IMG/VR virus record: IMGVR_UViG_3300042988_001550
DNA: 64,000 nucleotides
Direction: 5' to 3' (one strand)
DNA from: a virus
Position 1 is the stretch's first letter. The number at the start of each line of letters is the position of its first letter. A program made the position numbers and the translations under genes. Under the pieces are notes generated by a model. That model saw only the letters and a program-made list of their open reading frames with translations, did no database searches and was not told where the DNA came from. Below are positions 75-62,963 of the stretch, piece by piece.

Positions 75-1865
75 ATGAATAGCGCGACGCCGCGACTACT
101 GACCAGTCAGACCATGAGAGGTATTCGCCAGCTAGATCGTGAGCGCGGCTTCTCTCTTACGGACGAAGACGCCACATCAATTGCCGGCATGGTCAGCGAC
201 ACGCTGGCGATGGACACTGGCATGCAGGCAACGGCCATGTCCGGACCGACCGGGTCCAATAAAGTGGTAAACCAACTGCTTTCGGCCTTCTCCTCGCTTG
301 AGCGGTCTCTACAGGCTAACGCCACTGAGGTGCGCCGACTGAGCCTGGAAGGCCTTAAGATGGGTCTCACCCCAGAACAGATAACCAAGCTGGGAGAGAC
401 TGTCGGGAGAATGACCTTCAACTCCCAGTTCTCTAACGCTCAAGAAGCCACAGTAATGATGGGCTTGCGCCGAGAAGGTATATCAGGATACTACGGAAAC
501 GGTGACCGGTATGCTGTCCTTCAACGTAACCAAGCTGAGGCCATAAAGAATCAGCTACTTAGTCAAGGCAGAGGAACTGAGCTGTTTAGATATGGTGGCG
601 AGAATGCTACAGAAGCTGGGCTGCTCTACCAAGGCAGGATTGCTGCAAGAGGTGAGCAGTGGTTACAGAACAACGCCGGATCATTGGGAGTGCTGGCCGC
701 TCGCGGACAAATGCCTTCCAGCTTCTCGGATCTCGGGAACCAGCTAGGTCAGGTGTACTCTGCCGACCCGTTCGCTATGATCAATATGATGGCGGACCCA
801 GAGGCCAGACTAGATGCCGTCACTAATGCTGAAATCGCCTCATACCAGTTTGGTAAGATGGCTGGCAAGCAGATGCCGCAGCACGCCAGAGCAATAGCTA
901 TCCAATCAATTGCTAGACAAAATGGCGTCTCCATACCGGAGGCTGCTGAGATCTACAGACGATACCAGGCCCGAGAAGGTAGCCTAGCACTCATGTCAAA
1001 CAACATGGGCGTATCCGTAGATTCAATGCTGTTCACTGCTGCTAAGTACGATAGAGCAGGGTTGGCTCTCCCGGCGATCAGTTCTTCTGGATTAGCAAAA
1101 GCTGTTCAGAGCGGTAGCCTAGTCGACATGGTGATGGCGTATGATTCAGCCGATATCGGCGGCATTGGCGCCAAGATGATCAAATCTCGTACATCTTCTC
1201 TGCTCTCAGTCAAAGAACTTCAAGATCTCACGCCAACAGAACTGGTTAAGTACCTAGAGAAAGAGGTCAACGCTGGGAAGATATCCGTCGAGCAAGCTAA
1301 AGAACTAATACCGTCACTTCAAGTAAGCGATGTAGACGGAATGACTAGACTGTCGATTGATACCGTCGGGTTTAACTTATCAGAGCAGGCCCGCATCTCG
1401 TCTGAATACGTCGCTGCTGGCCGAGGCGGTTGGATAGGCGCGGTCATCGACGGCATGAACGAGAAAGCAAGTTCCGCATTTAACGCGCTTCACTGGTCCG
1501 TTGGTGATAGCGGACCTATCGGAAGCAAAATTGCTGGGTGGTCTGCTATAACGGGTGACGGTGCCCTGAGGGATAAGACACTTCTTAGAAAGAGTGTCGA
1601 GGGACTAACCGACGATACAGAGGAGCAGCGCCGAATAATGGATAGCATCGTTTCAATCCTCAATCAGGATGCCGGTGCTCCAGTATCTATAGAAGATCTG
1701 AACGGTGTCGGCGCTCTGGATAGTCGGGCTACCAAGGACGAGTTAATCAAGACAAACGTCTTCATCGACGCGTACAGAGCGATGAACAAGGTTAACAACC
1801 CTCCTCCGACTAGGGTGTACATCGCCGGTATTGATGAGACAGTCGCCACTGAGCTTCGAAGATGA
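75..1865 (+). CDS. hypothetical protein, 596 aa, possibly virion structural
   Basis: Long uninterrupted ORF at the head of a co-directional block with translationally coupled neighbours. No motif I recognise. Confidence 0.6.
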   Translation: MNSATPRLLTSQTMRGIRQLDRERGFSLTDEDATSIAGMVSDTLAMDTGMQATAMSGPTGSNKVVNQLLSAFSSLERSLQANATEVRRLSLEGLKMGLTPEQITKLGETVGRMTFNSQFSNAQEATVMMGLRREGISGYYGNGDRYAVLQRNQAEAIKNQLLSQGRGTELFRYGGENATEAGLLYQGRIAARGEQWLQNNAGSLGVLAARGQMPSSFSDLGNQLGQVYSADPFAMINMMADPEARLDAVTNAEIASYQFGKMAGKQMPQHARAIAIQSIARQNGVSIPEAAEIYRRYQAREGSLALMSNNMGVSVDSMLFTAAKYDRAGLALPAISSSGLAKAVQSGSLVDMVMAYDSADIGGIGAKMIKSRTSSLLSVKELQDLTPTELVKYLEKEVNAGKISVEQAKELIPSLQVSDVDGMTRLSIDTVGFNLSEQARISSEYVAAGRGGWIGAVIDGMNEKASSAFNALHWSVGDSGPIGSKIAGWSAITGDGALRDKTLLRKSVEGLTDDTEEQRRIMDSIVSILNQDAGAPVSIEDLNGVGALDSRATKDELIKTNVFIDAYRAMNKVNNPPPTRVYIAGIDETVATELRR

Positions 1866-20339: not shown

Positions 20340-20419
20340 TTTCTCGGTTTCTTACTAACAGAGCAAAAAAACAATGTGACAGTAATAAAAGGGTGGGAGA
20401 TTTCTCCCCCACCCCCTAT

Positions 20420-20807
20420 TGGTGACTTCGCTGGGATTTGAACCCAGGACCAACTGGTTAAACGTACCACTACAGCTTTCGCTGCCATACCAGACGCCAC
20501 AATCGTTAAACGCCCGCTGTTTGGTGGTCTGGACTATGCCTTTATCCAGGAGTCCGAGACGATGCTACGGAGCTGGATAGGTGATTATAGTCTCTACACG
20601 TCCTCACACGGCTTAGCGCCGAATTGTGACTGTACATACGATTACAGCCCTAGCAAGTTTCGCTCGGCGTTAGGGGTAGGTTCGAATGCCCCCTCTTTTA
20701 AGAGAGCCCTACTACCCATTCACCGAATTTACACCGTTTCACTGCACCATTACTGATACAGTGGCCCTTATTGAGCCAGTTGCTCTACCAGACTGAGCTA
20801 CGAAGTC
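20420..20807 (-). tRNA. tRNA-Lys(UUU) interrupted by a 311-nt group I intron (5' exon 20774..20807, 3' exon 20420..20462)
   Basis: The spliced exons give a canonical 77-nt cloverleaf: GACTTCG/CGAAGTC, GCTC/GAGC, ACTGG/CCAGT, CTGGG/CCCAG, loop CTTTTAA, and an encoded CCA. Confidence 0.75.
20463..20773 (-). other. group I intron within the tRNA-Lys anticodon loop (after U33)
   Basis: P1 pairs the exon end TGGCT with the internal guide GGCCA, including the U.G pair at the splice site. The intron ends in G. R-like (TAGAGACTATAA) and S-like (AAGGCATAGTCC) elements supply the P7 pairing GACTA/TAGTC. Confidence 0.7.
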
Positions 20808-21430: not shown

Positions 21431-21452
21431 TGGTACCCCCGGCAGGATTCGA
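21431..21452 (-). pseudogene. 3' fragment of the same tRNA type (half T-loop, acceptor 3' strand, CCA)
   Basis: TCGAATCCTGCCGGGGGTACCA. The acceptor CGGGGGT is complementary, with a G.U pair, to the GCCCCCG of the 5' fragment. Confidence 0.5.
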
Positions 21453-21460
21453 GGGTAGTG

Positions 21461-21537
21461 TGGTGCGCCAGGTAGGACTCGAACCTACAACTTACCGGGT
21501 AGAAACCGGTGTGTCTATCCAATTGACTTACTGGCGC
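21461..21537 (-). tRNA. tRNA-Arg(UCU)
   Basis: GCGCCAG/CTGGCGC, ACCGG/CCGGT with loop TTTCTAC, GTAGG-TTCGAGT-CCTAC, and an encoded CCA. The D-stem is weak. Confidence 0.7.
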
Positions 21538-21539
21538 GG

Positions 21540-21956
21540 TTATGGAGCGAGTCGGTAATCAGATGCAAAACGCACCCCTACCAACTGCTTATTTCTAGGA
21601 GGCCTAGTTCTGAGTGTGACGGACTTTTCTACATCGTCCTTACCAACATAGTAGACCTCTTTTGTATTTGGACAGTAGATGGCAATCACGTCATACTCCG
21701 CCTTATCCATTGGAGTTATGTGCGTGCCGTGTCTATCATTCCAACATGAACGGAGATTGACGGTGATTGCGCCCTTTCTATCCACCTCGCGGTACTTAAC
21801 CTGAATTCTTGAGAATGCCTGACCGTCCCAAGAAACCAAATCAAATGTCTGAAATTCAGATAGAGGCACGAGCACAATCCGCCCCTGCTCAGCCAGATCT
21901 GCCGCAACCTTCATTACGCCCAGGTCGCCTTTAGTTTTAGTGTGATGATGCTTCAT
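21540..21956 (-). CDS. PD-(D/E)XK nuclease-like protein (Hjc-type resolvase or homing-endonuclease-like)
   Basis: The core GRIVLVPLSEF...FDLVSWDG...SRIQVKY fits a D...(E/Q)VK nuclease pattern. It sits between a tRNA 5' fragment and tRNA-Arg. Confidence 0.45.
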   Translation of the reverse strand: MKHHHTKTKGDLGVMKVAADLAEQGRIVLVPLSEFQTFDLVSWDGQAFSRIQVKYREVDRKGAITVNLRSCWNDRHGTHITPMDKAEYDVIAIYCPNTKEVYYVGKDDVEKSVTLRTRPPRNKQLVGVRFASDYRLAP

Positions 21957-21985
21957 GTGTAAAGCATAGCGACACCAGCAGATTA

Positions 21986-22021
21986 GGCAACCGTTGCTCT
22001 ATCCAGCTGAGCTACGGGGGC
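21986..22021 (-). pseudogene. 5' fragment of an Arg-type tRNA (acceptor, D-arm and half the anticodon arm)
   Basis: GCCCCCG-TA-GCTC-AGCTGGATA-GAGC-A-ACGGT-TGCC is a perfect tRNA 5' half. The matching 3' end sits at 21431..21452, with no anticodon 3' stem, variable loop or T-stem 5' strand between them. Confidence 0.55.
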
Positions 22022-35842: not shown

Positions 35843-37816
35843 ATGGCCGTAGTAGAAAATCCCAATAGATTCAGCCTTCCGGTAGAGACGACTATTCGTC
35901 AGCTGCTGCTGGAGAAGCACCCCAAGCTAAACACAGCGCCGGGCTCGGCCATTTATGATCTAATCATAACACCTGCCGCTATCATCCAGCAGCAGATGCG
36001 CGACCGCATGCGTGTAATCCAGCGCAACCAGTCAATCGCTAACTTCGCTACGATGCTCCCAGAGGAAATGGATCGTCTGGCATCTAACTTCTTCGTCACC
36101 AGAAGAAGCGGAAGTAAGGCTACTGGACAGCAGCGAGTCTATTTCTCTACGCTACAGAACGTGACGATTTCCACCAGCGCGCAGTTCACGGACGAGACCG
36201 GCCTAACGTTCAATCCGTCACAGAACGTCTTCGTTTCCGCAGCAACCCTGGCGCTGAACAACGTGCCAGAGACCGGCGAGTACTACGTAGATGTCCCGAT
36301 AGTGTCCGAAGAGGTAGGAGAGAACTACAGACTCAAGGCAGGACAGATTGTTAGAGTCTCGGGAATTTCTGGAGCCTCTAGAACGATCAACCTATACGAC
36401 ATGAGCGGTGGCTCGTATCCGGAATCTAATAGCGAGCTCTACGTCAGAATCAAGAAGTCGTTGGCATCCAGGGACACTGTCAAAGCAGACAGCATTCGCT
36501 CACTGATCCTGGACAACTTCCCGTCGATCAAAGACGTGATTGTGCAAGGGTACGGCGACACACTGATGACAAGAGATGTCGCCAGCGTCGTGATGTCTGT
36601 TGATCGGATGTTTGAAGGATCTTTCGCTCAAAAGACTAACCTACCGCTCAATGCTAACGGGGACGTTGTGTGGACAGACGATTCTGGTGAAGTGATCGTA
36701 GCACCTATCGGCGGATACGTCGGAGCGATCTACGACCTCACCGGTAAGGACTTTAACAACCTTCGTATATCACTCGACGGTCGAGCATACGAGAACATCT
36801 CAATCCAGCCAGGGTTCAAGGTTCGTTTCCTAGATGACGCAGACTCGGACAGTGGTAAGTACTTCTTGGTCACCAAAGTAGAGGAGGTGCCTGTAGAACC
36901 AGGCGGAGATCCTATCAAGGTGATTAGACTAGACAGACCACTAACGTCTCTGACATCCGCCAGCACCGCCGCTGACGGTGCGGAATACACCATCTACGGC
37001 CACGTCAATACAAACACTTTCCACATCGGCGGGAAGGTGGACGTGTACATTAAGTCGGTTGAGGACCAGACGAAGTCAGTTGTTATCGGATCACTCCCGG
37101 CTACGCACGGCGACGCTATCTGCGAAGTACCGCTAGACTCGTCGTTCATTAGTGAGACCGGTCAGAACTACTTTGAACAAGGTATCGGCTTTGATAAGCC
37201 GGTGATCACGATTGTCAAGGTTGAGGAGATCGATCCGGTCGAGAACGATAGCGTGGTGAGAACGCTGATTCCAGATGTACACTACCGCGTCATCCGCAAA
37301 GAAATGCGCGGACGGTTTACTACCGCAGTATCAGATGTTCTGCGAATTGAAGGGACAGACACGTTCGCAGAGTCGGGGATCACTATCCCGACCTTCACTG
37401 GGGCACGGATCAAGGTCACTTACGTGACTAACCCGGACATCAACCTTATTCAGGAGTACATCAATCTTCCCACCAACAGGGACATTACTGGTGACACACT
37501 CGTGCTGCCGCCAGAAGTGGTTCAGTTGAACGTGACAATGTCATACAAAGGATCTAGATCCGTTAATGAGCTGTCAGAGCTAGTATCCCGATTCATTCAA
37601 AGTAAGGGATTCGCTCCGACTATCAGCGTGAACGAGTTGCTAACTGTTCTCTCATATTTCGGCGTAACGGACGTTACATTGCCGGTACTGTTCACCGCTA
37701 TCAAAGACAACGGCGACGGTACGTATACAGTCACCAATAGTGAAGACCGTATTCAGCTAGAAAGCACGCAAGTGTTTAAACCGGTTGCACAGTTAGCAAT
37801 CACTAAGACAGCCTGA
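35843..37816 (+). CDS. putative baseplate/tail structural protein, 657 aa
   Basis: Its position immediately upstream of the giant fiber-like ORF, with ATGA coupling, suggests a baseplate wedge protein. Confidence 0.55.
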   Translation: MAVVENPNRFSLPVETTIRQLLLEKHPKLNTAPGSAIYDLIITPAAIIQQQMRDRMRVIQRNQSIANFATMLPEEMDRLASNFFVTRRSGSKATGQQRVYFSTLQNVTISTSAQFTDETGLTFNPSQNVFVSAATLALNNVPETGEYYVDVPIVSEEVGENYRLKAGQIVRVSGISGASRTINLYDMSGGSYPESNSELYVRIKKSLASRDTVKADSIRSLILDNFPSIKDVIVQGYGDTLMTRDVASVVMSVDRMFEGSFAQKTNLPLNANGDVVWTDDSGEVIVAPIGGYVGAIYDLTGKDFNNLRISLDGRAYENISIQPGFKVRFLDDADSDSGKYFLVTKVEEVPVEPGGDPIKVIRLDRPLTSLTSASTAADGAEYTIYGHVNTNTFHIGGKVDVYIKSVEDQTKSVVIGSLPATHGDAICEVPLDSSFISETGQNYFEQGIGFDKPVITIVKVEEIDPVENDSVVRTLIPDVHYRVIRKEMRGRFTTAVSDVLRIEGTDTFAESGITIPTFTGARIKVTYVTNPDINLIQEYINLPTNRDITGDTLVLPPEVVQLNVTMSYKGSRSVNELSELVSRFIQSKGFAPTISVNELLTVLSYFGVTDVTLPVLFTAIKDNGDGTYTVTNSEDRIQLESTQVFKPVAQLAITKTA

Positions 37817-40800
37817 TGAGCACGAACAAGTTCGATCCGACGCCGTTATTCGACGCGCTCCCGTCCTTTTGGAAGGATTACTACAAGGACAAGGATGTTC
37901 TATCGACTGTGTATGAGGCATTGCTTCGTATTCAGGAGATCGACTACAATCGACTGTTCACAGTAGATGATTCAAAAACGCTGTCGTCTGTCCCAGTACT
38001 GACTCGATACCCCGTTGTCTACGATCAACTGAATGATTGGGAAACAACTGGTCAGAAGCACGCACACACAAAGATCAGCGTAGCCTTCGATCCGACACTG
38101 GTTACGCCCTTTGACGCGACCACACAGTACTATAGAATCCGCTTCCCAGACACGATCTTCAAGTACGATTCCCAGCTCTACTTAGATGGCCGAGCAATCC
38201 CGGCATCCTTCTACACGAAGGTTTTCGAGCCGTACTATTCTGGAGAGTTCACAGACGGGGAAACAGTGGGAACAACTGTTTACCTGCACGCGCAGCGCCT
38301 AGCACAATTGTTCGCAAAGCCGCTGTCAACTGAAGACTATGAGCTGATCACAGAAGATCCCGACCAGTTCGATAACTACGGAAATGTGTCCGAAGACCCG
38401 GAAGCGTTCGCAGACTACGGCAATCTCGGGTGGAGCGCTATAGAAGCTGTAACAACAGCGACAATGTATGCGTTCAAGTCTGTTCTCCCACTGAAAGCCG
38501 TTACAGACGGCAGCACTTCTAGCTTTGAGCTTGATCTGTCCCCTCAGACGTTATCCACGGATGAGTCTACGGTAGTTGTAGAGAGCGTGGACGTGACTGG
38601 CCGTGTGGCCGTCTCGTATGATTCGGCGTATACCACGGTAACTCCGGTAGGCAGCTTCTCGTGGCAGACTGGCCAGACGTTCAAAGTGACTTGGCAGGAC
38701 GGAACCATCCAGCAGGTTAGCGCCGCCACTGGCCTTCCGATCTATCTAACCAAACTTGATCCGATAGCATCGGTCCAACTTCTAACAAACTTCCAGATCT
38801 ACCCGTCAGTAACGACGGTAGATATCAACGGGGTTTCGGTCGGAAACAACCAGCTGTACCCTGGAACGATCGTTCGAGTTGTGGACAGCGTCGGTACCCA
38901 AAGCGCCGTAATCACTGACGCAACTAACCGGGTCACGTTCGAAAGACCGATCGACACAAACACCGCCAAGGTGTTTTTCCACGGAATCGACCTGCTCTCT
39001 GTAGATCTGACCGAGACGGCTCTCGACTTCAACACGCCACCGAACAAGTCAGTAACACTGCGGATCGATGGTGTGATCTCGAACGATCACCAGCACGTAA
39101 CTGAAACATTTGATATCGAGGTTATCACCCGGAATATCGTCCTAGCGAACACTCCAGCGACCGGTGCGATGACCGGTAACGAGTCTGAATTCCTTCCGTG
39201 CAGGGTGTTTAAGGACGGTCAGCTGCTACTGGCCGGAACCGACTATTCGCTGGTCGGATCGATCCTTATTTTTGAAGAGGATTTGCTGCCTCCGTGCAAA
39301 GTCTCCGTGTACTACGAGATCAGCGGTGAGGTTGCGCATACGCACTACCACCAGGTTTTCCAGAACCTGGCGTCCAATAACCGACTAACCATTGATAGAG
39401 AGGTATCTGCCGATGATACGTTCGAACTATACTACGACTCCCTGCTTAATACACACCAGAGTCAGCTTGATCTGGTCGGCGGCAGAAGCATCACTCTTGA
39501 CAATGTCTTCCCCGAAAACATCACCATTGTTTTCCACGGTATTCAGCGCGGTTGGGCATATCGGCATGTTATTGCCGACCGCATGGATGCGCGATACGGG
39601 TATAGAGGACACGTCAAATCAATTGGCTTTATCCAAGACGGCCTTATTACGGCTTCCGCAACGCTCTCGTCGCAAGACGGGGACATTGCTGTAGTTGAGG
39701 AAAACGGCGATACAGTCCTCTACTCGAACACCAAAGTAATAGATGCGTGGATGTTCGATGTCGATGTAGACGAGCAGCTTATCAGCAATGTGTGGGGGGC
39801 TCTAGTAGATAACGTAGAAGCCTCCACAGATGACCAAGCTGTTCGTATTACGAGCCTCCTTGCCGCCGCTAGATCTCCAGCGTTTGTCGCTAACATGGAG
39901 AACTTCGGATCAATTGTACTAGGGTCCAGGTTTCTCGAAGAAGACGGCGTCTCTCTAGGAATCCGTACAGACGATAACGGAGACCGGGTTGTATCTATCC
40001 GTCCTACCGATACCCAGAGTGACAACTTCGACGTCCAGCTGATCGATGGCGCCGAGGTCCGCATAACGGACGGAAGCGTTCTCCCGCGCCTGTTCGCTGT
40101 CAATAAACTGCTCTCGGTTATTGACAAAGACCTGTCATCTGTTCCTTGGCTCGCCTTCATGGCTGAGTCATTGTCTAGCGACTTCAGGTTTGCTAAGAGA
40201 CTCGACGCAAAGACGTCTAAGAAGCTGACTAGTGACAACGGCCAGTTCGATCAGGTTACCGGAGTCCTAACGGACTATTCGATCAACTTCTATGAAGAAG
40301 AAGTTCGCGTAGGTGACCAGATCCGCCTCGAATTCGCTATCTTCGACTTCACTCTACCCGATAACCCTCTTGAAGAGAGAGATCCGGTTGTAGCGAACGT
40401 TCTGGAAGTAATCAATCCTAACCAGATACGTATCAAGTCCCCAGAGATTGTCGACATCGCCGGATTCGGAGAAAACTCTTACGGCTCCGGACCGTTCGGT
40501 GGCGGGATCTATACGCCGTCTCTCAGATCCTATACCGTCTGGACACGTGTAACTAGGAAGCTAGACAGCTTCTATAAGCTCGACACCGCCCTAGCATCCG
40601 CCCAAGCGTTTGTGTCTGGTGAGGACGTTCAGCTGACGAACGAGGAGCTAGCTAAGCTCTTAAGACACCACGTCTTCGTTCTGAAGCTCAATTGGGATCG
40701 TATGGTATCAGCTGAGCAGCTGGCGACGTTGCAGCAGCTGATCAGAACCCTAAAGCCCGCTAAGACGACGGCTCTGGTGTATACCGAACTGGAAGATGGT

Positions 40801-43800
40801 AATGGTATTGCAGAGACGCTGGGATCTGAGCTAACAGAAGGTTCGCCTGAGCTAAGTGTTGCAGGTGATCGAGTAGCAGATGAGTTCTACACTGGAACCA
40901 GTTATCTTGGTGCGGATTACAGAACGCAGTCTTCCACAAACACGCTGCTCTACGATCCCGCCTCGTTCACTGTGGGACCGGCAGCATTCGCCCTTACTAA
41001 CGAACCCGACCTAGTTCCTAAGGACTCGCAGTACTACCTGACAGCTTCCAGAAACAGCATGATTGATGCTGGATCTGCCTGGGCAACTCTATACTCAGGT
41101 CAGCACGGTCTGGAAGGATTACTCCTCAAATCGACTCTAGTCACTGGGGTAGCCTCTTATGAGGTGTACCCCGTGTTCGGGTACCGCCCCAACGGGTTTG
41201 CTATCGAGTTCAACGGACAGCGCCGCCTGAACGTACCGTGGGTCTATCTAGCTGACGACTTCACGTTCCGCACATGGATGACGGTTCCCAGCGGCTCAAT
41301 TGGCGCTGGAGAAAGCCCGCAACTTCTAGCTCTTGGAAGCACAGGATTCCGTATCGGTCTTGGGTATGTGTCTGCATCGACATATGAAGTGGCGATCTAC
41401 CCGAGCCCGTCGCAGAGAATTGTTGTTGCTGAGTTCTCACCAGACACTGAGACATTCCTTTCAGTGACCTATCGCGAAGATGACAGTCAGTTTGAGACGA
41501 TCATCGCTGGTGGTAGGAACGGAAGCGGCACTACTTCTACGGATGCCGGCGTCACCGCGTCGTTCACTGGAACGCTGTTCCTTGGTGCTGGAAATACTGA
41601 TCCGATTCAAGACTCTGGTATCACCGCCACACTCGACGAGACAGTTCTGCTAGGCAGAGCAGCGTCTCCTGAGGAAGTTGCGTCGTGGTACTCTACCCGA
41701 TATTGGAGCGGTCCGCTGGGCGTCAGCGCTAACGGCTCTCCGCTATCCGAGCTGGGCGCGCAAATCGTCCTTCACTTCGATAAGGAAGACGCCCTTAGCA
41801 CCACGGTGTTCGATTACTCTGGAGAAGGTAATAACCTCTCGAAAGAGTCTGACGATGTTGATGACCTGGACAGCGACTGGTTCGTTTCTGGAATCATCGA
41901 CACGCCGCTGCCGTCTGAGAAAGACTACTTCCAGCTCGATCGTCGCGGCTACTACATCACGGATGGTAGAAGAGTAACCATTCCTGTCCTCGACGAGGAT
42001 GGTGTTCCGACTACGGTGGAATACACCGCCCGTTCTGGTGAAATCGCATACACCGCTCCCAATGTCGCTTACTACTTCACAGGGAGTAGCTGGCTCAAGG
42101 TAGATGCTTTCCCGTCCACCAGCTCGTCAGCCGTCAGCGTTAACCGCTGGACCGGACCTTATCAAGGGTTCTTTGAGAACGGGTACATTGACCCCAACAA
42201 CCAGGTTCGTTCTAGCGTCATACGGTTTGATGCAACACTCGGAACTGATCCCGCGTTCAAGTTCTCAGCTAAAAACAATGCCGCTATCAGCTCGATCAAG
42301 ATCGGCGGTACCGAGATCCTCGAAGTAGACACGAAAGCCGACATCGTCCAGCAACGTTGGGAAGTCGGTAACTCTTTCGTTCTTGCGGAAGCTGGTGCAG
42401 ATAACCAATCACCGAGAGAACAGTCGCTCTCCAGATACGTGTCGTCTACCTTCACCACAACTGGTGGAGTGGTTAGATCTTATCCAGCGTTCTCGCAGCT
42501 ATACACAGAGGTAAGCCCACCGCTAGAAGCGTCAGGCGACCTCTTCACGAAGCGGGTGAAGCTCGGCGTTGTAAACAACAATCACATTCTAGAGATAGAA
42601 TCATCGCTACAGCCGTATGCCTCGCTAAACAACGCTTACGTCGGCTGGGTCTATCAGCTGAGCCTATCTGATGCGCTGACCGAGGCGTTCTCTTTCCAGG
42701 TAGGGACTCAAGGTGCTGGTTACGGCCAGCCGATCTATCTTGGTAAGGCTGAGGAATCGGATAATCAGATCGAGACCACCTTTAAGGGCGGGGTCATTCT
42801 GACGAGTGTAGACAGAACGCTGGCAATCGGTATCTACCACCACGGACCGAGCAGACCGAACTACCGTATCGCCACTGATATCGAGTATCTGAGTACCCCG
42901 AACAGGGTTCTGCTGTCGTCTACGGAATACATCAGAAACTCTGGCGGCGTGGCCGGAGAGATGAGCAAGAAGCGCTATATCTGCGCCGGTAACTTTGTCG
43001 AAGTGGTATCGGCATTCGCGGAGCTGTATGCGCACCTGGAAGGACTTCCGGCTCCGACCTTCTCCTTCCCGGCGATAGCAATGCAGGCGGCTATTACCTC
43101 GCCGCTTAACCAGAACATCCTACTGAACCAGACAGTTGATTTTAACGTTCGCGCCATCAGTGCCTACGGAACGATCGACGCGCTGTACGCGGAGGATGTG
43201 ACAGCGACGGTTACCGACATTACAACCGGAACAGCTACGGACTACGTGGAGACGTTCGTTAACGGCGTGGCCGACTTCTCGGCTATACCGATGACGCAGA
43301 ACGGCTCTAAGTCAGTGTTCCTCACCAGCGGTTCGCTGCAGCCGGCTACTCTTTCACTAGATGTGTGGTGGCCTAAGCCTATCATCACTAGTATCACGCC
43401 CACTACAAGTGTTACCGGTACAGCGGACACTACCGTTCGGATCTTTGGCTCGCAGTTCTACTCTCCTCACGTAGCACAATGGCGGGCACCTGGATCAAAT
43501 ACATGGGTTGACCAAACAACCACATACGTCAGTCCTGGAGAGGTGCAGTTCTCTCTGCTGACCAGCATGAAGACGGTCGGTCGTCACGTGATTCGTGTAT
43601 CGACGCCGAGACTGCTGGGCGCTATATCTAACTCGGTGTTCCTACAGGTAACTGCGTCCGCGCCGGTATGGTCTCCGCACTACCTGTCGATCGACACCTA
43701 TCCGTCGACAACACTAATCAATTCCAGTAATCAGTACGCTGTGTCTCTAAGACACAGCCCGTCTGGTAACCTGGCCACAATCAACAGCGGTCGCGTAACA

Positions 43801-46800
43801 CTGACTGCTCAGCCGACTGGCTCGTTTACTGGAACCATGAGTGCGTGGGCATCGCCGGTTAACGGTGTCGCTCTGATTAACGGCTCAGTCAACAAGGCAG
43901 GTATCTACGACCTCCGCGCGGTCCACTCGCCACTGTCCGGTGGAGCAGCTAGAACGGACGTAGAGTATGCTGTACTTACTGTACAGAACCCGGACCCGGT
44001 TCTTAGCCGAGTGTCTCCGCCGTGGTTCTCACCTGAAGCGGCGTCTTTTGACGAGTTCCGGCTATTCGGCGCGAACTTTATCCAGAACGACAGTGTTGTA
44101 GAGTTCTGCCTTACTTCGCCGAACCACCCGAGCTTCTCTGGTTGGACAACCAGAACGACGGTATTTGATACCAGCTCTCAGATAATCGGTTATCTCACGA
44201 CCGGTGACATTGCATACGACTCGACAGAGAGATACAGATATGCGAGAGTGTCTACACGATACTCTGTGTCTGGCCTACCTTCAGCGTCAGTAAGCATTCT
44301 CGTGTCCCCCACCGCCGGAGTTCCGCCGGTCCCGACAGTATACAGCCCGTTCTTCCTAGGTGAAGTCGTCGAAGTCGGGTCGCTCACGTACAACGATCAG
44401 TTCGTTAACGAGACGGTCGACGTTCTAGTTCCTGTACTACACTCACTCATTCCGCTAGTATCGGCGTCAACAGCAACCGGATTGGTTAGAGTGGTGGCTT
44501 CCCCAGAGCTTCCTGAGTACACTGGCTCAGGCTCGGATAGCGCTGTTCCGCAAGTCGGCAACCAGATCGCCTTCCTATCTCCTCAGATATCGTCGTACGG
44601 TAGATATCGTCTATCCGCGACATACTCCCCCGGCGTCGGTGAGACAGCGGTTGTCGGTTCAGCCAGTGATTACTTCAACGTCTATCTAAGACCCGCCACG
44701 ATTAGCCGCGTGTCCCCGGTCATAACGAGCCCGCTCGGAACGCAGACGATCACGATCACTGGCGCAGGCTTCAACGTATCGAACAAGGTTTACCTGACGA
44801 ACGCCACCGCTAGCACGACTGTAACAGCTAGCCCGTCCTTCACGTCGGCTCAGAGCATTTCGTTCCAGCTATCCCCAGGAAACTACACAGGACAGCAGGA
44901 TCTTCTGCAGATCCAGGTAGGTACGCCGACTTGGAGCTACGCACTATCAAACAGTAGTTACCTAACACTGTATCCGACACCTAGCACCTACACGGTGTCT
45001 CTAAACCCAGACGTAAACAATCCGCCGCCTATCCTGACACAGACGATCGTTGTCGGAAACACGCTACCGACGATCGACGCACATGTCTTCGATAACGCCG
45101 GACAGCCTGCAACGTCTGTAACTGGCTTAGTGTCCCTCGCCATCACCAAGACCACAGGCGGTGTGGCTTACAGCGGAGCAGATTCGCCGGTCAACGGCTA
45201 CGCCTCCTTCTCTGGTATCACCGCTCCGGCGGCAGGTATCTACAACATCTCGGCTGAGTTCTCTCCGACCGGCGGAACTCCTGTAACAGCAGACGAGATC
45301 CAGTTCTACTCGCTAAACCCCGTCGGATACGCTACAAGCGTAAGCCCATCCACATTCGCGGCCAACGGTGTTCCGAGAACGATTAAGGTGTACGGCCAGA
45401 ACTTCCTTTCTGGAAGCACCGCTGTCCTGGTTAACGGAAGCGAGTCGGCTGCGTTTGTGCAGACAGTACACAGCCCGAAGGCGCTCACAGCAACACTAAG
45501 TACGTTCGCTTCTAACAGCGTCGGTACTCATCAGATCTCTATCAAGACGCAGTTTGCTGCTCCTGGCGGGCAGCCAGCTTATAGTGGTGTTTCTGTTCCT
45601 CTAACCATCACAGCTAACCCGTCGGCTCCAGCCGCTGGATCTGAGGAGAACCTGCCTGCTACCATCATCGTCTCTCCTCTAGGATATGCGAGAGTACGTT
45701 CACCTTCCGGACCAATCACGCCGATCTGGACACCTGTAGCTGTTCCAGGACAGGATCGCGGTAGCGATAGCCTGTGGCAGGCGTGCATCAATCGCGTTGG
45801 CCAGTACAACACGGCCAATCCTCCCGGTACTATCCAACCTACAGCGACCAGCCCCGGCGCTGCGGACGTGGTTGAAGTCACAGCCGGTATGTACTCTCAC
45901 GTCAAGTTCTACACCGGGAATGCAAGCGGTCCCCACGAGACAACAAACGCACAGGCTAGAGGACTCAGCCTAAGACAGCCCCTTATCATTCGTGCACGCA
46001 AGACTAACGGTGTTGCCGAGCCTGTAGTTATTCGCCCCTTCTCGTTCATCGACCCAGCAGACACGACATACGCGTGCATAACCTTCCAGGCAACACCAAC
46101 GTACAAGCCTGGCTTCATGCACTTCTACGATATTGGTTTCATGGGACGTCACTACGGTGTCGAGCATGTTCGATCAACGAACATGACCGGCTCGGTGGAC
46201 TACTACTATGAAGATCATCAGTTCCATCGTTGCCGTATCCTCGGCACGTATGACCATCGAACAATAGCGTTGGCGCCGTATAGGGTGACTCAATCAACCC
46301 AAAGTAATGTCCTCACTAATCAGAAGCACTGGAATTACCTAGGTCAGGAACTAATTGCTCCATCAACTAGCCCGTCCAATAGCTTCTTATGGAGAATGGA
46401 TATTCCAGCAGACCAGGTACATCGGGCGCTACATAGAAACCGTTATTGCGTCAGTGTGCCGGTCACCAGTCCGGCAGATCTGAATCCATTGCCCACCTGC
46501 CTAGGGGTTGTAATCGGCGCGGCACCGTCTAGTGAGTTTGTTTACACATCTAGCCAGAGCGTCTCGACTAGCAAGCTAATTCACCTCGGCCTTGATAAGG
46601 GAACCGGCGGCTCACCGCACTATGTTGAGCTGACATTGATGGCAGACGGTGAAAACGGCGGCGCAGGTGTAGCGAATTCCCGGTCAAATGTCTCTGTATG
46701 GAGCGGTTCTTGGCAGCTTCTCACTGTTACAAACGGAGTGGTTCCTGTCGGCACCGTTTACGACAATACTAAGTACCCCTTGACTGGTAGAGTTATTGGC

Positions 46801-57541: not shown

Positions 57542-57570
57542 GATGGAGCCGACGATGGGATTTGAACCCA
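57542..57570 (-). pseudogene. tRNA 3'-end fragment (T-arm, acceptor 3' strand, CCA) with no matching 5' half
   Basis: ATGGG-TTCAAAT-CCCAT-CGTCGGC-T-CCA. I could not find the complementary acceptor strand within 120 nt. Confidence 0.4.
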
Positions 57571-58375
57571 TAACCCCTTCATTACCTGCCCACTTTGAAC
57601 TTTCGTTCGACTACATTACACTAGTCTAGTGGGATGGACTTTCTCTTCACCCTCGTCTTTACGTTAGGGTGCGCCGTGTAAAGTCTCTACACTTGCCCGG
57701 TTCTTTTAGGAACCTGCTAGCTCGGGATTGCCATTTTAAAGGTTTCCCCGACTTAGCGGCGTCCACTTTATAGGTTTCCCTAGAAAGGTCCGTAATCATG
57801 ACTTACTGCTGCGCTGAGTGTCAAACAACGTTCTCTCGAAAGGACAAAGCACGTTCTGTAAACGCATTCTGTTCTCGATCTTGTGCCGCCAGCTATAACA
57901 ACAGGAAGAAACCTAAGAGGGCGCGAAGCCGTCGGGATTCTAGTTGTGTTAGTTGCGGAAAAAGTACCCATAACCGTAGATTCTGCGATTTGGTGTGCTT
58001 CCACAGACTTAGGGCCGATACAAAGATCGCCAACTGGTTGTCAGGCCACGAGACGCGCGTCACCTCTCATCGAAGAGACGCTATCCGCTCCTGGCTGTTG
58101 AAGGACCAGCTAGAGAAGTGTGCCTTGTGCGCCCAATCAGGAAATTGGAACGGCAAGCCACTGCTTTTTGTTTTGGACCATATCAATGGAGACCACACCG
58201 ATAACAGCAGAACCAATCTACGCCTTATCTGTCATAACTGTGACTCACAGTTACCTACGTACAAAGGCAGAAATCGCGGTTTCGGGCGATACATCAGAAG
58301 ACAACGATACGCAGACGGTAAATCGTTCTAACAAATGAAGAGCTCTGCCAATTGAGCTACATCGGCAATTGAAAG

Positions 58376-59446: not shown

Positions 59447-59792
59447 TGGTGGACCTGGTCGGAGTCGAACCGACGTGTTTGAACTGTCGTTAGTATTCTT
59501 CTACACGCTTGTCCGATTTTTGTTCCACTGTCCAGGCATTAACCGGCAACTATCCCGGCAGTGGTTCCGCAGTATACGCCCTAGGTCGAAGCGGGTCTCT
59601 CCAGGGTGTCCTAATAGTTGCAGCCACTCCCTTATTAGGAATCAAGGGTGGCTGGGATTAGCGGAGTCTAGGCCGCCATCGCGAGCTGAGGTTCAGCATT
59701 TTAGTTTTCCCAAGAAGGATTAACGAGCTTACTTGAGATGCTCGGCGTGCTTCACTACATTTGACTGAACAAATCGAAACCAGTTCAGGCCC
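59447..59792 (-). ncRNA. ssrA: tmRNA (ssrA-like), 346 nt, tag ORF 59668..59697
   Basis: 5' GGGCCTG pairs with 3' CAGGTCC-A-CCA and includes the G3.U70 Ala identity pair. The T-arm is GTCGG-TTCGACT-CCGAC. GUGAAGCACGCCGAGCA parallels E. coli GGUGCAUGCCGAGG. The tag frame is aaaactaaaat-GCT GAA CCT CAG CTC GCG ATG GCG GCC TAG, giving (A)AEPQLAMAA. Confidence 0.7.
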
Positions 59793-60060: not shown

Positions 60061-60173
60061 TGGTCGGCCCGGAGGGACTCGAACCCCCAACCCTCCGCAT
60101 ATCAGACGGCGCCCAGTTGTTACACCAGGGGCGGATCATAAATCCACTGCTCTACCATTGAGACTACGGGCCG
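60061..60173 (-). tRNA. tRNA-like gene with anticodon UAU (Ile-type) and a ~41-nt insertion between the anticodon stem and T-arm
   Basis: CGGCCCG/CGGGCCG, GTGGA/TCCGC with loop TTTATGA, GGGGG-TTCGAGT-CCCTC, A73, and CCA. It is 113 nt long. Confidence 0.4.
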
Positions 60174-61376: not shown

Positions 61377-62963
61377 TTAGTCCTTGGCGAAATTGCTGAT
61401 GAGAGCCGGAGTCTCGGTATCGTACCCGACGATGTCCAGCTGGTGCGGGTCTTGAGGATCCGCGATGGTGAAGCCGGTAGCCGTCATGCCGACGACGATG
61501 GCCTTGGCGTTGGGGCGGTTGCGTTCCTTGCGGAATCGATTCAGCGCCTGGTACGGCTGCACGCCGCCGTTCGTCTCATTGTCAGTCATGATGACGAAGC
61601 AATCCACGTCACGCTTCTGGGAGGTCGCGTACGAGTAGGCCGCCGAGCAGTCGGTTGATCCGAAGTTGTTCATGACAACCTTGTGCATAGCAGTCGCCAG
61701 GGTATCGTTTGCATGGATACCCAGGTCCTTGATCGTGCTGGCGAAGCCAACGATCTCGTGGTAGGGCTCACGTCGAGCCAAAACCATTGCCAGGCACGCG
61801 GTACCCATCGCCGGGGTGAACCCAGGGAAGACGGAGCCCGCCGAGCCGTACCCACCACCAGCCATCGACCCCGAAACGTCAAGCGCCAGCAAGAAGTTCT
61901 TGTTGGACGGTTCGACGTTGTTGAAGGCGTGGTAGAACAGCGCTTCCGTGACATCGGTGATGGTGCTCACCGGGGTCCAAGACAGGCTGCCCTTGATGCC
62001 ATGACCCTGACGGTACGTGTAGTAGGCGGCCAGCGCCTGCATCGGATGGATACGCGACTTTTTGATCGCTTCCTTATCCGACAGCTTCTGCTGGACCAAC
62101 TTCGTAGCCGAGCTGAGAGGCTTCAGCAAGCCGTTCGCCGTCATGCGCGCCAGGTTGCGGGTTAGCGCATTCAGCGGCATGTTCGGCAGCAAGGCTTCCC
62201 AGATCTCCGGATTCCCCAGCTGCTCCGTCGGAATCATTTCCCAGGTGATCGACTTGTTGCGTCGAATCACAGCGAGGATACCATTCTTGTCCGCCTTGCT
62301 GATTTCCTCCAGATCCGCGACGATCTGAGGAATACCTTCAGCAATCACATTCTTGCACGCCCACTGGAACAGTGCCTGCTGTTCCTTGAGAAGCGGCTTC
62401 GGGTGAGCCATGCGCAGCACGTCACGATGCGTCCACCCGTTGCGGTTGCGGTACTTGGCCATCTGATAGGCGAGGTCGTCGCCCTTCTTGTTGATGTACC
62501 AATCACCAACCGTCGTGCAGAGCATACGCCCCCAGCCGCGCATGTTCTGGACCTCTTCCGTGAACTGGAACAGGTGGGTACCCGTCCGGATCACCTGATA
62601 GAAGACGGCCTTGGCAGCCACCTTCGTCGCGAGGTCCTTGCTGCTCATCGCCATTGCCAAAGCAAAAATTGCGGGGTCTTGCTTCGGCGCACGCCCACCG
62701 ACGCTGATGTCGCGGATGACACCAACCGTCTTGGGACCGTCAGCATTGAGGCAGCGGGTCACCACCTCAGCATTGTCCACAGTCAGCTTGCGCTCGGACA
62801 CGTAGTACGTGCCGCCGCTCGACCCGAGAATCAGAAATCGTTCCAACCGCTTCCAGTCGTCAGTCTGGAACACATACCCACCGGTGTTGTTCAGTACCTG
62901 GTCTGAACGTGTCTTCTCGTGCACCGGTGCAGGAGTGTTCAGGATCTTGCCGTAGTTCTTCAC
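61377..62963 (-). CDS. rsr: Ro60/Rsr ortholog (TROVE domain plus C-terminal vWA/MIDAS)
   Basis: N-terminus NNTGGYVFQTDDWKRLERFLILGSSGGTYYVSERKLTVDNAEVV matches Ro60. The C-terminus has LALDVSGSM...TDNETNG (MIDAS). GTG start follows an AGGAGGG ribosome-binding site. Confidence 0.8.
   Translation of the reverse strand: MKNYGKILNTPAPVHEKTRSDQVLNNTGGYVFQTDDWKRLERFLILGSSGGTYYVSERKLTVDNAEVVTRCLNADGPKTVGVIRDISVGGRAPKQDPAIFALAMAMSSKDLATKVAAKAVFYQVIRTGTHLFQFTEEVQNMRGWGRMLCTTVGDWYINKKGDDLAYQMAKYRNRNGWTHRDVLRMAHPKPLLKEQQALFQWACKNVIAEGIPQIVADLEEISKADKNGILAVIRRNKSITWEMIPTEQLGNPEIWEALLPNMPLNALTRNLARMTANGLLKPLSSATKLVQQKLSDKEAIKKSRIHPMQALAAYYTYRQGHGIKGSLSWTPVSTITDVTEALFYHAFNNVEPSNKNFLLALDVSGSMAGGGYGSAGSVFPGFTPAMGTACLAMVLARREPYHEIVGFASTIKDLGIHANDTLATAMHKVVMNNFGSTDCSAAYSYATSQKRDVDCFVIMTDNETNGGVQPYQALNRFRKERNRPNAKAIVVGMTATGFTIADPQDPHQLDIVGYDTETPALISNFAKD

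What the first reader, a model, noticed from the sequence alone, without database searches (positions are those of the whole stretch)
20420..20807. tRNA-Lys(UUU) split by a 311-nt ORF-less group I intron inserted after U33
The two exons (20774..20807 and 20420..20462, minus strand) join into a perfect 77-nt tRNA-Lys with loop CUUUUAA. The intervening 311 nt show group I hallmarks: P1 with the exon end TGGCU paired to the internal guide GGCCA, including the U.G pair at the 5' splice site; a terminal G; and R/S-like elements (UAGAGACUAUAA and AAGGCAUAGUCC) that supply the P7 pairing GACUA/UAGUC. Bacterial and phage tRNA group I introns are known mainly in tRNA-Leu(UAA), fMet, Ile and Arg, so tRNA-Lys with an insertion between positions 33 and 34 is unusual. 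The ORF track's 20562..20756 ORF lies antisense inside the intron and is not credible.
Basis: partly seen in the sequence, partly recalled or inferred. Interest (0 to 1): 0.7.

Follow-up and report, generated by a model that had tools for sequence, protein, structure and literature searches.

The report
Self-splicing intron splits phage tRNA-Lys
A lysine tRNA gene carried by an uncultivated large phage is interrupted in its anticodon loop by a 311-base group I (self-splicing) intron of the type long known from bacterial tRNA genes. The feature is real, but it is a new member of a known family rather than a new kind of element.

Summary
Exons 20807..20774 and 20462..20420 (minus strand) join into a canonical 77-nt tRNA-Lys(UUU). 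The 311 nt between them are a group I intron.

Rfam RF00028 gives only 20.1 bits, below its 50-bit threshold. I built a covariance model from 13 published bacterial tRNA introns. It hits the window at exactly two places. One is this intron (73.4 bits, E~3e-21, full length), and that match ends on the predicted terminal G.

All helices P1-P10 can be drawn with standard pairs. Several carry compensatory changes relative to the bacterial consensus. The guide sequence co-varies with the exon across relatives. No endonuclease ORF is present.

The rarity claim is overstated:
- Position 33/34 is the classical tRNA-fMet site.
- tRNA-Lys(UUU) introns at 34/35 are already listed for Actinomycetota.
- I found at least 6 further Lys 33/34 cases and 7 Lys 34/35 cases in public viral or metagenomic contigs, including GenBank huge phage LR756508.

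I found no paper describing group I introns in phage tRNA genes; a 2014 review says none were known.

The window holds a second, missed case: tRNA-Thr(UGU) split by a 747-nt intron that carries an antisense HNH gene.

Splicing itself is inferred, not shown.

The parts
20774..20807 (-). 5' exon of tRNA-Lys(UUU): acceptor 5' strand, D arm, anticodon stem 5' strand, C32 and U33. Its last base, U at 20774, is the base before the 5' splice site.
   Evidence: the joined exons give a 77-nt tRNA-Lys.
20463..20773 (-). Group I intron, 311 nt, IC3-like, without an endonuclease gene.
   Evidence: R1 covariance model: 73.4 bits, E 3e-21 over 20463..20740. RF00028: 20.1 bits. Helix map. ORF check.
20420..20462 (-). 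3' exon: U34-U36 anticodon, A37 and A38, anticodon stem 3' strand, variable loop, T arm, acceptor 3' strand, A73 and CCA.
20762..20778 (-). P1 hairpin. Exon U29-U33 plus intron C1 (20778..20773) pair with the internal guide GGGCCA (20767..20762). U.G wobble is U(20774).G(20766). Loop is AAUAA. The loop bases UAAG (20770..20767) can pair with the first four 3'-exon bases UUUA (P10).
   Evidence: The guide co-varies with the exon sequence in relatives.
20742..20761 (-). P2, 8 bp, capped by a GUAA (GNRA) tetraloop.
   Evidence: direct reading.
20732..20735 (-). P3 5' strand GGUG. It pairs with CACC at 20583..20580.
   Evidence: GGUU/AACC in relatives L001 and L003 is a compensatory variant.
20664..20726 (-). 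P4 (UCGGUG/CGCCGA), J4/5 AA, P5 (GGGUAG/CUACCC) and a P5a hairpin extension.
   Evidence: P5 is GG/CC where the bacterial consensus has CC/GG.
20598..20663 (-). P6 (GCG/CGU) with a branched peripheral extension (P6a, P6b, P6c).
20588..20597 (-). J6/7 and the P7 5' strand: GUA-G[A]GACUA with a bulged A.
   Evidence: Identical to the invariant GUAGAGACU of all 13 bacterial seed introns.
20580..20583 (-). P3 3' strand CACC. It closes the P3/P7 pseudoknot.
20543..20579 (-). P8 (UAUCCAG/CUGGAUA) with an inner hairpin.
   Evidence: The first four pairs are UAUC/GAUA where the consensus has CACC/GGUG.
20531..20542 (-). J8/7 (AAGGCA) and the P7 3' strand (UAGUCC).
   Evidence: P7 pairs are invariant or co-varying across 25 distinct sequences.
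20466..20528 (-). P9 domain: closing helix ACCAC/GUGGU, an inserted hairpin (about 20516..20491), and hairpin GCAGC-GAAA-GCUGU with a GNRA loop.
20463..20463 (-). Terminal G (omega G), the last base of the intron.
   Evidence: The 3' end of the full-length R1 match falls exactly here.
20395..20408 (-). Terminator-like hairpin GGGAGAAATCTCCC followed by a T-rich tail, 12 nt after the CCA end.
   Evidence: This is a consensus scan only.

Best explanation
The locus is a phage-encoded tRNA-Lys(UUU) gene interrupted between U33 and U34 by a 311-nt group I intron. The intron belongs to the bacterial tRNA (IC3-like) type and carries no homing-endonuclease gene. Inferred mechanism: the gene is transcribed with the upstream small ORFs and the transcript ends at the hairpin just after the CCA. 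The intron folds into the P3-P9 core. The last five exon bases UGGCU pair with the guide GGCCA (P1), which places the U.G wobble at the splice site. A free guanosine bound in P7 attacks after U33. The terminal G (20463) then takes the same site. The guide-loop bases UAAG align the 3' exon UUUA (P10). The freed 3'-OH of U33 joins to U34, giving a 77-nt tRNA-Lys with anticodon UUU. Shown here: the sequence, the fold and family membership. Inferred: transcription, catalysis and use of the tRNA. The intron is most simply a tolerated selfish element. It belongs to a lineage that also sits after U33 in tRNA-Leu(UAA), tRNA-Met(CAU) and other tRNA-Lys genes on viral contigs.
For: Exons: the joined exons give a canonical tRNA-Lys(ttt), and the boundary is unique. 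Uninterrupted phage tRNA-Lys genes with the identical anticodon arm exist (L138-L140).

Covariance model: R1 was built only from 13 published bacterial tRNA introns. On those seeds its structure is 97% paired, with a covariation score of 0.39 against 0.12 when shuffled. R1 hits the window at two places only. The target scores 73.4 bits, E 3e-21, over model positions 1-182, and the match ends on the predicted terminal G.

Core sequence: the invariant single-stranded stretches (GUAGAGACU, the A-rich J3/4 and J4/5, J8/7 AAGG.AUAGUCC, the GAAA loop) are all kept.

Helices: differences from the consensus fall in helices and are compensated. P5 is GG/CC instead of CC/GG, the third P6 pair is G-C instead of C-G, and P8 is UAUC/GAUA instead of CACC/GGUG. 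All pairs in P1-P10 are Watson-Crick or G.U.

Family: across 30 matches (25 distinct sequences), 95.5% of cells are paired, 32 of 42 pairs show changes on both sides, and no shuffle or slid control comes close.

P1: the guide co-varies with the exon. Examples are UGGCU/GGCCA here, GCCU/GGGC in L012 and L253, GACU/GGUC in L257 and L220, ACUU/GAGU in the Lys 34/35 introns, and GGACU/GGUCC in the Leu introns.

Context: a terminator-like hairpin follows the gene. No ORF with a domain lies in the intron.
Against: There is no transcript or splicing data of any kind. RF00028 scores only 20.1 bits, below its gathering score of 50. P3 is only 4 bp (GGUG/CACC), with a U/U where the consensus has a closing C-G; this is a trait of the whole viral subfamily. 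A46 and C45 of the guide could instead extend P2, and P1 competes with the anticodon stem. The unconstrained fold is only modestly more stable than shuffles (z = -2.56). The only other copies of this exact locus are 100% identical, so purifying selection on this particular intron cannot be measured. R1 E-values are rough because calibration was shortened. The family alignment A2 was fitted to the model, which biases pair counts toward the structure.
Confidence: 0.87

Rival explanations
1. The intron is a catalytically dead relic, so the tRNA-Lys gene is a pseudogene. The fold is largely kept by descent but no longer splices.
For: No expression data exist. P3 is short with a U/U mismatch. RF00028 is sub-threshold. 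The same tRNA region holds clear tRNA gene debris: tRNA-Arg-like fragments around 22021 and 21431.
Against: Both exons are flawless. Every conserved joining segment is intact and the helix differences are compensated. The short P3 is shared by about 20 relatives that sit in otherwise intact tRNA genes. P1 and P10 fit this exon specifically.
Confidence: 0.08
2. The intron splices and is also kept because it is useful. It interrupts the DNA site that anticodon-loop-cutting homing endonucleases recognise, making the gene immune. It may move with the help of endonucleases encoded elsewhere in the tRNA cluster (collaborative homing).
For: A free-standing PF11645 PD-(D/E)XK endonuclease gene (E 6e-33) lies 730 bp upstream, next to tRNA-Arg(UCU) and between tRNA-Arg-like fragments. 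PD-(D/E)XK endonucleases are reported inside tRNA-fMet and tRNA-Arg(UCU) introns. The second intron in the window carries an HNH gene. The closest intron cores to this one sit in tRNA-Leu, not tRNA-Lys (80% against 67-70% identity), which suggests movement between tRNA genes.
Against: Three ORFs and a tRNA gene separate the endonuclease from the intron. Its target site is unknown. No intron-minus allele of this same phage was found. The identity ranking rests on a model-fitted alignment with variable regions. Nothing shows a benefit.
Confidence: 0.2
3. The 311 nt are not a group I intron. They are some other insertion or structured RNA, or two tRNA halves lying next to each other by chance.
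For: Weak Rfam matches to tmRNA (20.1 bits) and mascRNA (27 bits) overlap the 3' part.
Against: Those weak matches cover only the tRNA-like 3' exon. The R1 match is full length with E 3e-21 and exact boundaries. P7, J8/7 and J6/7 are identical to those of known introns.
Confidence: 0.01

Closest known systems
Bacterial tRNA group I introns of subgroup IC3: Azoarcus tRNA-Ile(CAU), Anabaena/cyanobacterial tRNA-Leu(UAA), and Synechocystis-type tRNA-fMet at 33/34
   Same: Same location class (anticodon loop). Same core: P3-P9 with GUAGAGACUA, AUAGUCC and a GAAA-capped P9 hairpin. U.G wobble at the 5' splice site and a terminal G. GNRA loops on P2 and P9. The anticodon-stem 5' strand is used in P1. 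The 33/34 site is the same as in tRNA-fMet.
   Different: The host is tRNA-Lys(UUU) on a phage genome. P3 is reduced to 4 bp. P5, P6, P8 and P9 carry large peripheral insertions, giving 311 nt against about 200-250. RF00028 is sub-threshold.
tRNA-Lys(UUU) introns at 34/35 in Actinomycetota (Table S5 of PMC13011429)
   Same: Same tRNA species and anticodon. Two of them (GCF_015277895.1, GCF_021582875.1) are labelled IC3, have the same core motifs, and were among the seeds of model R1.
   Different: They are inserted one nucleotide further 3' (after U34) and are chromosomal. Their guide is GAGU-like rather than GGCCA. Two others of the four are labelled IB2 and have a different P4 sequence.
Group I introns of phages in protein-coding genes (T4 td/nrdB/nrdD, SPO1 and Bastille DNA polymerase, Twort orf142)
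   Same: A self-splicing group I intron carried by a tailed phage. Homing-endonuclease genes are often nearby.
   Different: Those interrupt mRNAs and are mostly subgroup IA2. A 2014 review states that all phage introns then known were in protein-coding genes despite the many phage tRNA genes (PMC3984707). This one interrupts a tRNA and is IC3-like.
Patescibacteria tRNA-Asn/Asp introns at 35/36 (PMC13011429)
   Same: Anticodon-loop group I introns that standard tRNA finders miss.
   Different: Those belong to subgroup IA and are inserted at 35/36.

Membership tests
Group I intron | P1 helix formed by the 5' exon end and an internal guide, with a U.G wobble at the splice site | tested here: met
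   U30-A46, G31-C45, G32-C44, C33-G43, U34.G42, C35-G41. The guide co-varies with the exon in relatives.
Group I intron | G as the last intron nucleotide (omega G) | tested here: met
   G at 20463. The full-length R1 match ends there.
Group I intron | Conserved core: P4-P6 domain, P3-P7-P8 pseudoknot, J8/7 and J6/7 strands | tested here: met
   Every core helix is drawn with standard pairs. The core aligns to RF00028 and R1. Family covariation including P7: 95.5% paired, 32 of 42 pairs changed on both sides.
Group I intron | Rfam RF00028 score at or above the gathering threshold (50 bits) | tested here: not met
   20.1 bits, E 0.0096 for the 651-nt region. According to the Williams preprint none of the RF00028 seeds used then were bacterial, and that model is known to miss tRNA introns. 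I treat this as a sensitivity limit of the model, not as evidence against membership.
Group I intron | Guanosine-dependent self-splicing | not testable with these tools
   Needs an in vitro transcript with GTP and Mg2+, or RNA from infected cells.
Bacterial tRNA-type (IC3-like) group I introns | Significant full-length match to a covariance model built from bona fide bacterial tRNA introns | tested here: met
   R1 (13 seeds from Table S5 of PMC13011429, all labelled IC3 there): 73.4 bits, E 3e-21, positions 1-182.
Bacterial tRNA-type (IC3-like) group I introns | Insertion within the anticodon loop of a tRNA gene, with exons that form a normal tRNA | tested here: met
   Insertion between U33 and U34; 77-nt cloverleaf after joining.
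Bacterial tRNA-type (IC3-like) group I introns | Formal subgroup assignment with subgroup-specific covariance models (GISSD or Group1IntronDatabase) | not tested
   Those models are not available here. The assignment rests on similarity to IC3-labelled introns, for example the AAAUUCGGUGAA P4 region.
Mobile (endonuclease-bearing) group I intron | Homing-endonuclease ORF inside the intron | tested here: not met
   Sense ORFs are at most 31 aa. The antisense 64-aa ORF and the 125-aa overlapping ORF have no Pfam hit.
tRNA-Lys | Cloverleaf with anticodon UUU, U33, A37 and discriminator A73 | tested here: met
   ARAGORN on the joined exons; loop CUUUUAA; the gene ends ...GAAGUC-A-CCA.

The most novel reading that the evidence does not exclude
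This intron belongs to a phage-borne, recently mobile lineage of IC3 introns that colonises the same spot (after U33) in different tRNA species (Lys, Leu, Met) by re-tuning its guide sequence. Spread would be helped in trans by free-standing or intron-borne homing endonucleases that populate phage tRNA clusters. Intron carriage would protect the tRNA gene from those nucleases. If so, the textbook statement that phage group I introns avoid tRNA genes is simply an annotation artefact.
Probability: 0.3. Interest if true: 0.65.

Novelty: new member of a known kind. Interest (0 to 1): 0.45.

Why it matters
First, annotation. Default ARAGORN and the Rfam tRNA and group I models all miss this gene and the split tRNA-Thr in the same window. 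Phage tRNA inventories, and codon-usage or anti-defence arguments built on them, are therefore incomplete.

Second, a widely cited review states that all phage group I introns known in 2014 lay in protein-coding genes despite abundant phage tRNA genes. This window, more than 20 IMG/VR and metagenome contigs, and the GenBank huge phage LR756508 show that IC3 introns do occupy phage tRNA genes.

Third, the set of near-identical cores sitting after U33 in Lys, Leu and Met tRNAs, with matching guide changes, is a natural series for studying how a ribozyme retargets.

Fourth, phage tRNA-Lys(UUU) is of interest as a substitute for host tRNA-Lys cut by anticodon nucleases. This is my recollection and was not tested here. 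Whether the intron delays or gates its production is an open but testable question.

Tried and rejected
- blastn of the locus against 50,697 GenBank phage records found nothing at E 1e-5. With E up to 10, only short core matches appeared.
- The search for related loci with the downstream DUF4241 protein found no relatives in IMG/VR, so no intron-minus allele of this phage lineage could be recovered. The only other copies (Logan SRR35181315 and SRR35181316) are 100% identical.
- The loose 3'-junction pattern in IMG/VR returned mostly chance matches. Eight were real after filtering.
- The genome-contig scan gave 36 matches, none confirmed by R1.
- A MAFFT --add alignment of the intron to the seed alignment misplaced P4' onto a look-alike AAUUCGGCGCUAA in P6c. 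I discarded it in favour of the model-based alignment.
- phmmer of the PD-(D/E)XK protein against PDB sequences found nothing. R1 with filters off found no ribozyme remnant around that ORF, so it is free-standing.
- The weak Rfam tmRNA and mascRNA matches reflect only the tRNA-like 3' exon.
- A 2017 paper reporting 'group I introns' of 22-49 nt in cyanobacterial tRNA-Lys(CUU) (PMC5733544) was judged not comparable, because such lengths cannot hold a group I core.
- I could read only part of Table S5 of PMC13011429, and the table of the Williams preprint is an image. I therefore cannot exclude that Lys 33/34 is listed there.

Full report
**1. The observation**

On the minus strand, 20807..20774 reads GACTTCGTAGCTCAGTCTGGTAGAGCAACTGGCT. 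20462..20420 reads TTTAACCAGTTGGTCCTGGGTTCAAATCCCAGCGAAGTCACCA. ARAGORN calls the joined sequence a 77-nt tRNA-Lys(ttt) with all four stems perfect and anticodon loop CUUUUAA. With introns allowed it recovers the same gene from genomic sequence with a 311-nt intron.

The 5' exon has 34 nt because the D loop has one extra base, so its last base is canonical U33. The cut cannot be moved. The intron begins with C and ends with G, while the neighbouring exon bases are both U.

Default ARAGORN (15 genes) and Rfam at gathering thresholds both miss the gene. No other tRNA-Lys is called in the 64-kb window.

**2. What the 311 nt are**

Rfam RF00028 aligns 20513..20783 at only 20.1 bits, against a gathering score of 50. 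The alignment still places P3, P4, P5, P6, GUAGAGACUAUAA, P8 and AAGGCAUAGUCC correctly.

RF00028 is reported to be weak on bacterial tRNA introns, so I built an independent test. I copied 13 published bacterial tRNA introns (all labelled IC3 there) from Table S5 of PMC13011429. I aligned them from P3 to the terminal G (A1) and gave them a hand-drawn structure. On the seeds that structure is 97% paired. Its covariation score is 0.39 against 0.12 in shuffles, and about 0.03-0.08 when the partners are slid.

The resulting model R1 has 182 positions and 36 pairs. It hits the whole window, both strands, exactly twice:
- 57586..57765, 120.4 bits.
- The target, 20463..20740, 73.4 bits, E about 3e-21, model positions 1-182. 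Its last aligned base is the predicted terminal G at 20463.

E-values from this model are rough because calibration was shortened. The margin is nevertheless very large.

**3. Anatomy (window coordinates are in the parts list)**

| Element | Sequence or pairing |
|---|---|
| P1 | exon UGGCU plus intron C1 with guide GGGCCA; U.G wobble at the splice site; loop AAUAA |
| P10 | loop bases UAAG pair with the first 3'-exon bases UUUA |
| P2 | 8 bp with a GUAA tetraloop |
| P3 | GGUG/CACC |
| J3/4 | A-rich |
| P4 | UCGGUG/CGCCGA |
| J4/5 | AA |
| P5 | GGGUAG/CUACCC, plus a P5a hairpin |
| P6 | GCG/CGU, with a three-branch extension |
| P7 | G[A]GACUA/UAGUCC with the bulged A |
| P8 | UAUCCAG/CUGGAUA, plus an inner hairpin |
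| J8/7 | AAGGCA |
| P9 domain | closed by ACCAC/GUGGU; contains an inserted hairpin and a GCAGC-GAAA-GCUGU hairpin; then ACG with the terminal G |

Every listed pair is Watson-Crick or G.U.

The invariant single-stranded segments of the bacterial seeds are all retained. Differences lie in helices and are compensated. P5 is GG/CC instead of CC/GG. The third P6 pair is G-C instead of C-G. P8 is UAUC/GAUA instead of CACC/GGUG.

The weak spot is P3. It has four pairs, with a U/U where the consensus has a closing C-G.

There is no endonuclease gene. Sense ORFs within the intron are at most 31 aa. The antisense 64-aa ORF and the 125-aa GTG ORF that starts at 20500 have no Pfam match. A terminator-like hairpin follows the CCA. 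The upstream ORF ends 7 nt before the tRNA, so co-transcription is plausible. That is inference.

**4. Relatives**

An exact-match scan of IMG/VR with the two core elements found 16 contigs. R1 on 100 sources gave 30 matches. I spliced each one virtually at every upstream U or C and asked ARAGORN for a tRNA with the junction in the anticodon loop. The results were:
- tRNA-Lys(UUU) 33/34: the window, L012 and L090.
- tRNA-Lys(UUU) 34/35: L121, L137, L134, L035, L118 and L032.
- tRNA-Leu(UAA) 33/34: ten loci.
- tRNA-Met(CAU) 33/34: L007 and L010.
- Several introns outside tRNA genes, including one in crAss-like phage cr112_1 upstream of its replicative helicase (L017).

A metagenome scan for the Lys 33/34 3' junction added L257, L220, L253, L238 and L231/L218. 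The unannotated GenBank huge phage LR756508.1 carries tRNA-Lys(UUU) 34/35 and tRNA-Arg(UCU) 34/35 introns on either side of a tRNA-Glu.

A scan of 185,579 species-representative bacterial and archaeal genomes for the Lys 33/34 junction with this P9 signature gave 36 matches. R1 confirmed none of them. This signature is present in most, but not all, of the seed introns, so the negative result is suggestive only.

On the family alignment A2, with P7 added as a pseudoknot, 95.5% of cells pair. 32 of 42 pairs change on both sides. The covariation score is 0.48, against 0.14 when shuffled and 0.08 or less when slid. A2 is fitted to the model, which favours the structure.

P1, which is outside the model, is an independent check. 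The guide tracks the exon:
- UGGCU/GGCCA here.
- GCCU/GGGC in L012 and L253.
- GACU/GGUC in L257 and L220.
- ACUU/GAGU in the Lys 34/35 introns.
- GGACU/GGUCC in the Leu 33/34 introns.

Uninterrupted phage tRNA-Lys genes with the identical anticodon arm ACTGG-CTTTTAA-CCAGT exist (L138-L140).

Over consensus columns, the nearest cores to ours are tRNA-Leu introns (L005 and L015, 80%). The other Lys 33/34 introns are at 67-70%. This hints that intron lineages move between tRNA genes, but the measure is crude.

**5. Genome context**

The window is phage-like. It has a baseplate wedge protein, a virion structural protein, helicases whose best matches are Salmonella phage Arash (37%) and Pseudanabaena phage PA-SR01 (35%), a 3764-aa ORF, 14 ordinary tRNAs and a tmRNA. 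The host is unknown.

The same sequence occurs in Logan assemblies of SRR35181315 and SRR35181316.

**6. How it most likely works**

See Best explanation. Sequence, fold and family membership are shown here. Transcription, guanosine-initiated splicing and use of the tRNA are inferred from the established group I mechanism.

The main rival is an inactive relic, which I rate at about 0.08. A non-exclusive extra reading is that the intron gives immunity against, or is mobilised by, homing endonucleases of the tRNA cluster, which I rate at about 0.2. That reading rests on the neighbouring PF11645 endonuclease gene and on the HNH gene in the second intron. It has no direct support.

**7. Comparison with what is known**

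The intron works like, and by the tests available is a member of, the bacterial tRNA (IC3-type) group I introns.

Position 33/34 is the classical tRNA-fMet site (fMet.2Ug in Williams' nomenclature). Introns are now reported at nearly every anticodon-loop position. tRNA-Lys(UUU) at 34/35 is listed for four Actinomycetota.

I could not find the following in the searchable literature: (a) any description of a group I intron in a phage tRNA gene, and (b) tRNA-Lys at 33/34. On (a), Hausner et al. 2014 state that all phage introns then known were in protein-coding genes, and five further searches found nothing. I could not read the whole of Table S5 or the table image of the Williams preprint, so (b) is not certain.

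**8. Verdict**

The novelty is modest: a new member of a known kind, with a new host gene and site combination on a phage. The real practical point is that such genes are invisible to standard annotation. Interest 0.45.

Noticed in passing
window 57544..58366 (minus strand): A second split tRNA that every default tool missed: tRNA-Thr(UGU). The 5' exon is 58366..58333, the intron is 58332..57586 (747 nt, inserted after U34), and the 3' exon starts at 57585. Virtual splicing gives a 76-nt tRNA-Thr. The ribozyme core scores 120.4 bits with R1 and 57.6 bits with RF00028. The first ~535 nt of the intron carry a 177-aa HNH endonuclease ORF (57798..58331; phrog_10822, E 8e-19) on the opposite strand. 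P10 is strong (AUUAC:GUAAU) but P1 is only 3 weak pairs.
   Followed up: yes
window 21431..22021 (minus strand): A free-standing 138-aa PD-(D/E)XK endonuclease gene (21956..21540; PF11645, E 6e-33) sits directly upstream of an intact tRNA-Arg(UCU) (21537..21461). Both are bracketed by a tRNA-Arg-like 5' fragment (from 22021, GCCCCCGTAGCTCAGCTGGATAGAGCAACGG) and a matching 3' fragment (ending 21431...CGAATCCTGCCGGGGGTACCA). It looks as if an endonuclease-plus-tRNA cassette replaced the middle of an older tRNA gene. No ribozyme remnant is present. The N-terminus resembles that of the endonuclease inside a Bacteroidota tRNA-Arg(UCU) intron.
   Followed up: partly
window 60064..60173 and 61377..62963 (minus strand): A Ro60 orthologue (TROVE plus vWA_Ro60 domains) is encoded about 1.2 kb from a tRNA-like RNA. 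That RNA has anticodon-loop sequence UUUAUGA and a ~40-nt insertion in the variable region (RF00005, 44 bits; missed by ARAGORN). It could be a Y-RNA-like partner of Ro60. Rfam YrlA gave no match.
   Followed up: partly
window 59447..59792 (minus strand): A phage-encoded tmRNA (101 bits, tag AEPQLAMAA) lies next to a block of seven tRNA genes.
   Followed up: no
L259 (GenBank LR756508.1, 484-kb uncultured huge phage) 771..926 and 1168..1306: Two unannotated intron-split tRNAs flank a tRNA-Glu: tRNA-Lys(UUU) with a 193-nt intron after U34, and tRNA-Arg(UCU) with a 175-nt intron after U34. R1 scores are 107.6 and 95.9 bits. LR756511.1 (L258) also has an R1 match (85 bits) whose host gene I did not resolve.
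   Followed up: partly
L017 (MT774388.1, crAss-like phage cr112_1) 575..794: An IC3-like intron core (73 bits) lies in the unannotated gap between a hypothetical protein and the replicative DNA helicase. The isolates PhiCrAssBcn14-18 share the same 30-nt core match. It probably splits a protein-coding gene.
   Followed up: partly
L012 (two introns), L231 (two R1 matches), L044 (two R1 matches): Single viral contigs carry two related introns. For example, L012 has tRNA-Lys(UUU) 33/34 and tRNA-Leu(UAA) 33/34 about 1.6 kb apart.
   Followed up: partly
L001 4845..5178 and flanks: The intron-split gene has anticodon UAA but a short variable arm, which is not the long-arm type expected of bacterial tRNA-Leu. 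It sits directly upstream of a normal long-arm tRNA-Leu(UAA). Its identity is unclear.
   Followed up: no
L002, L003, L006, L008 (R1 matches at 117-118 bits): Four viral contigs share an almost identical intron that is not in a recognisable tRNA. The downstream sequence is GAAAAATTTCC... and the host gene was not determined.
   Followed up: no
window 37816..49110 (plus strand): A single 3764-aa ORF lies in the structural gene block downstream of the baseplate-wedge-like gene.
   Followed up: no
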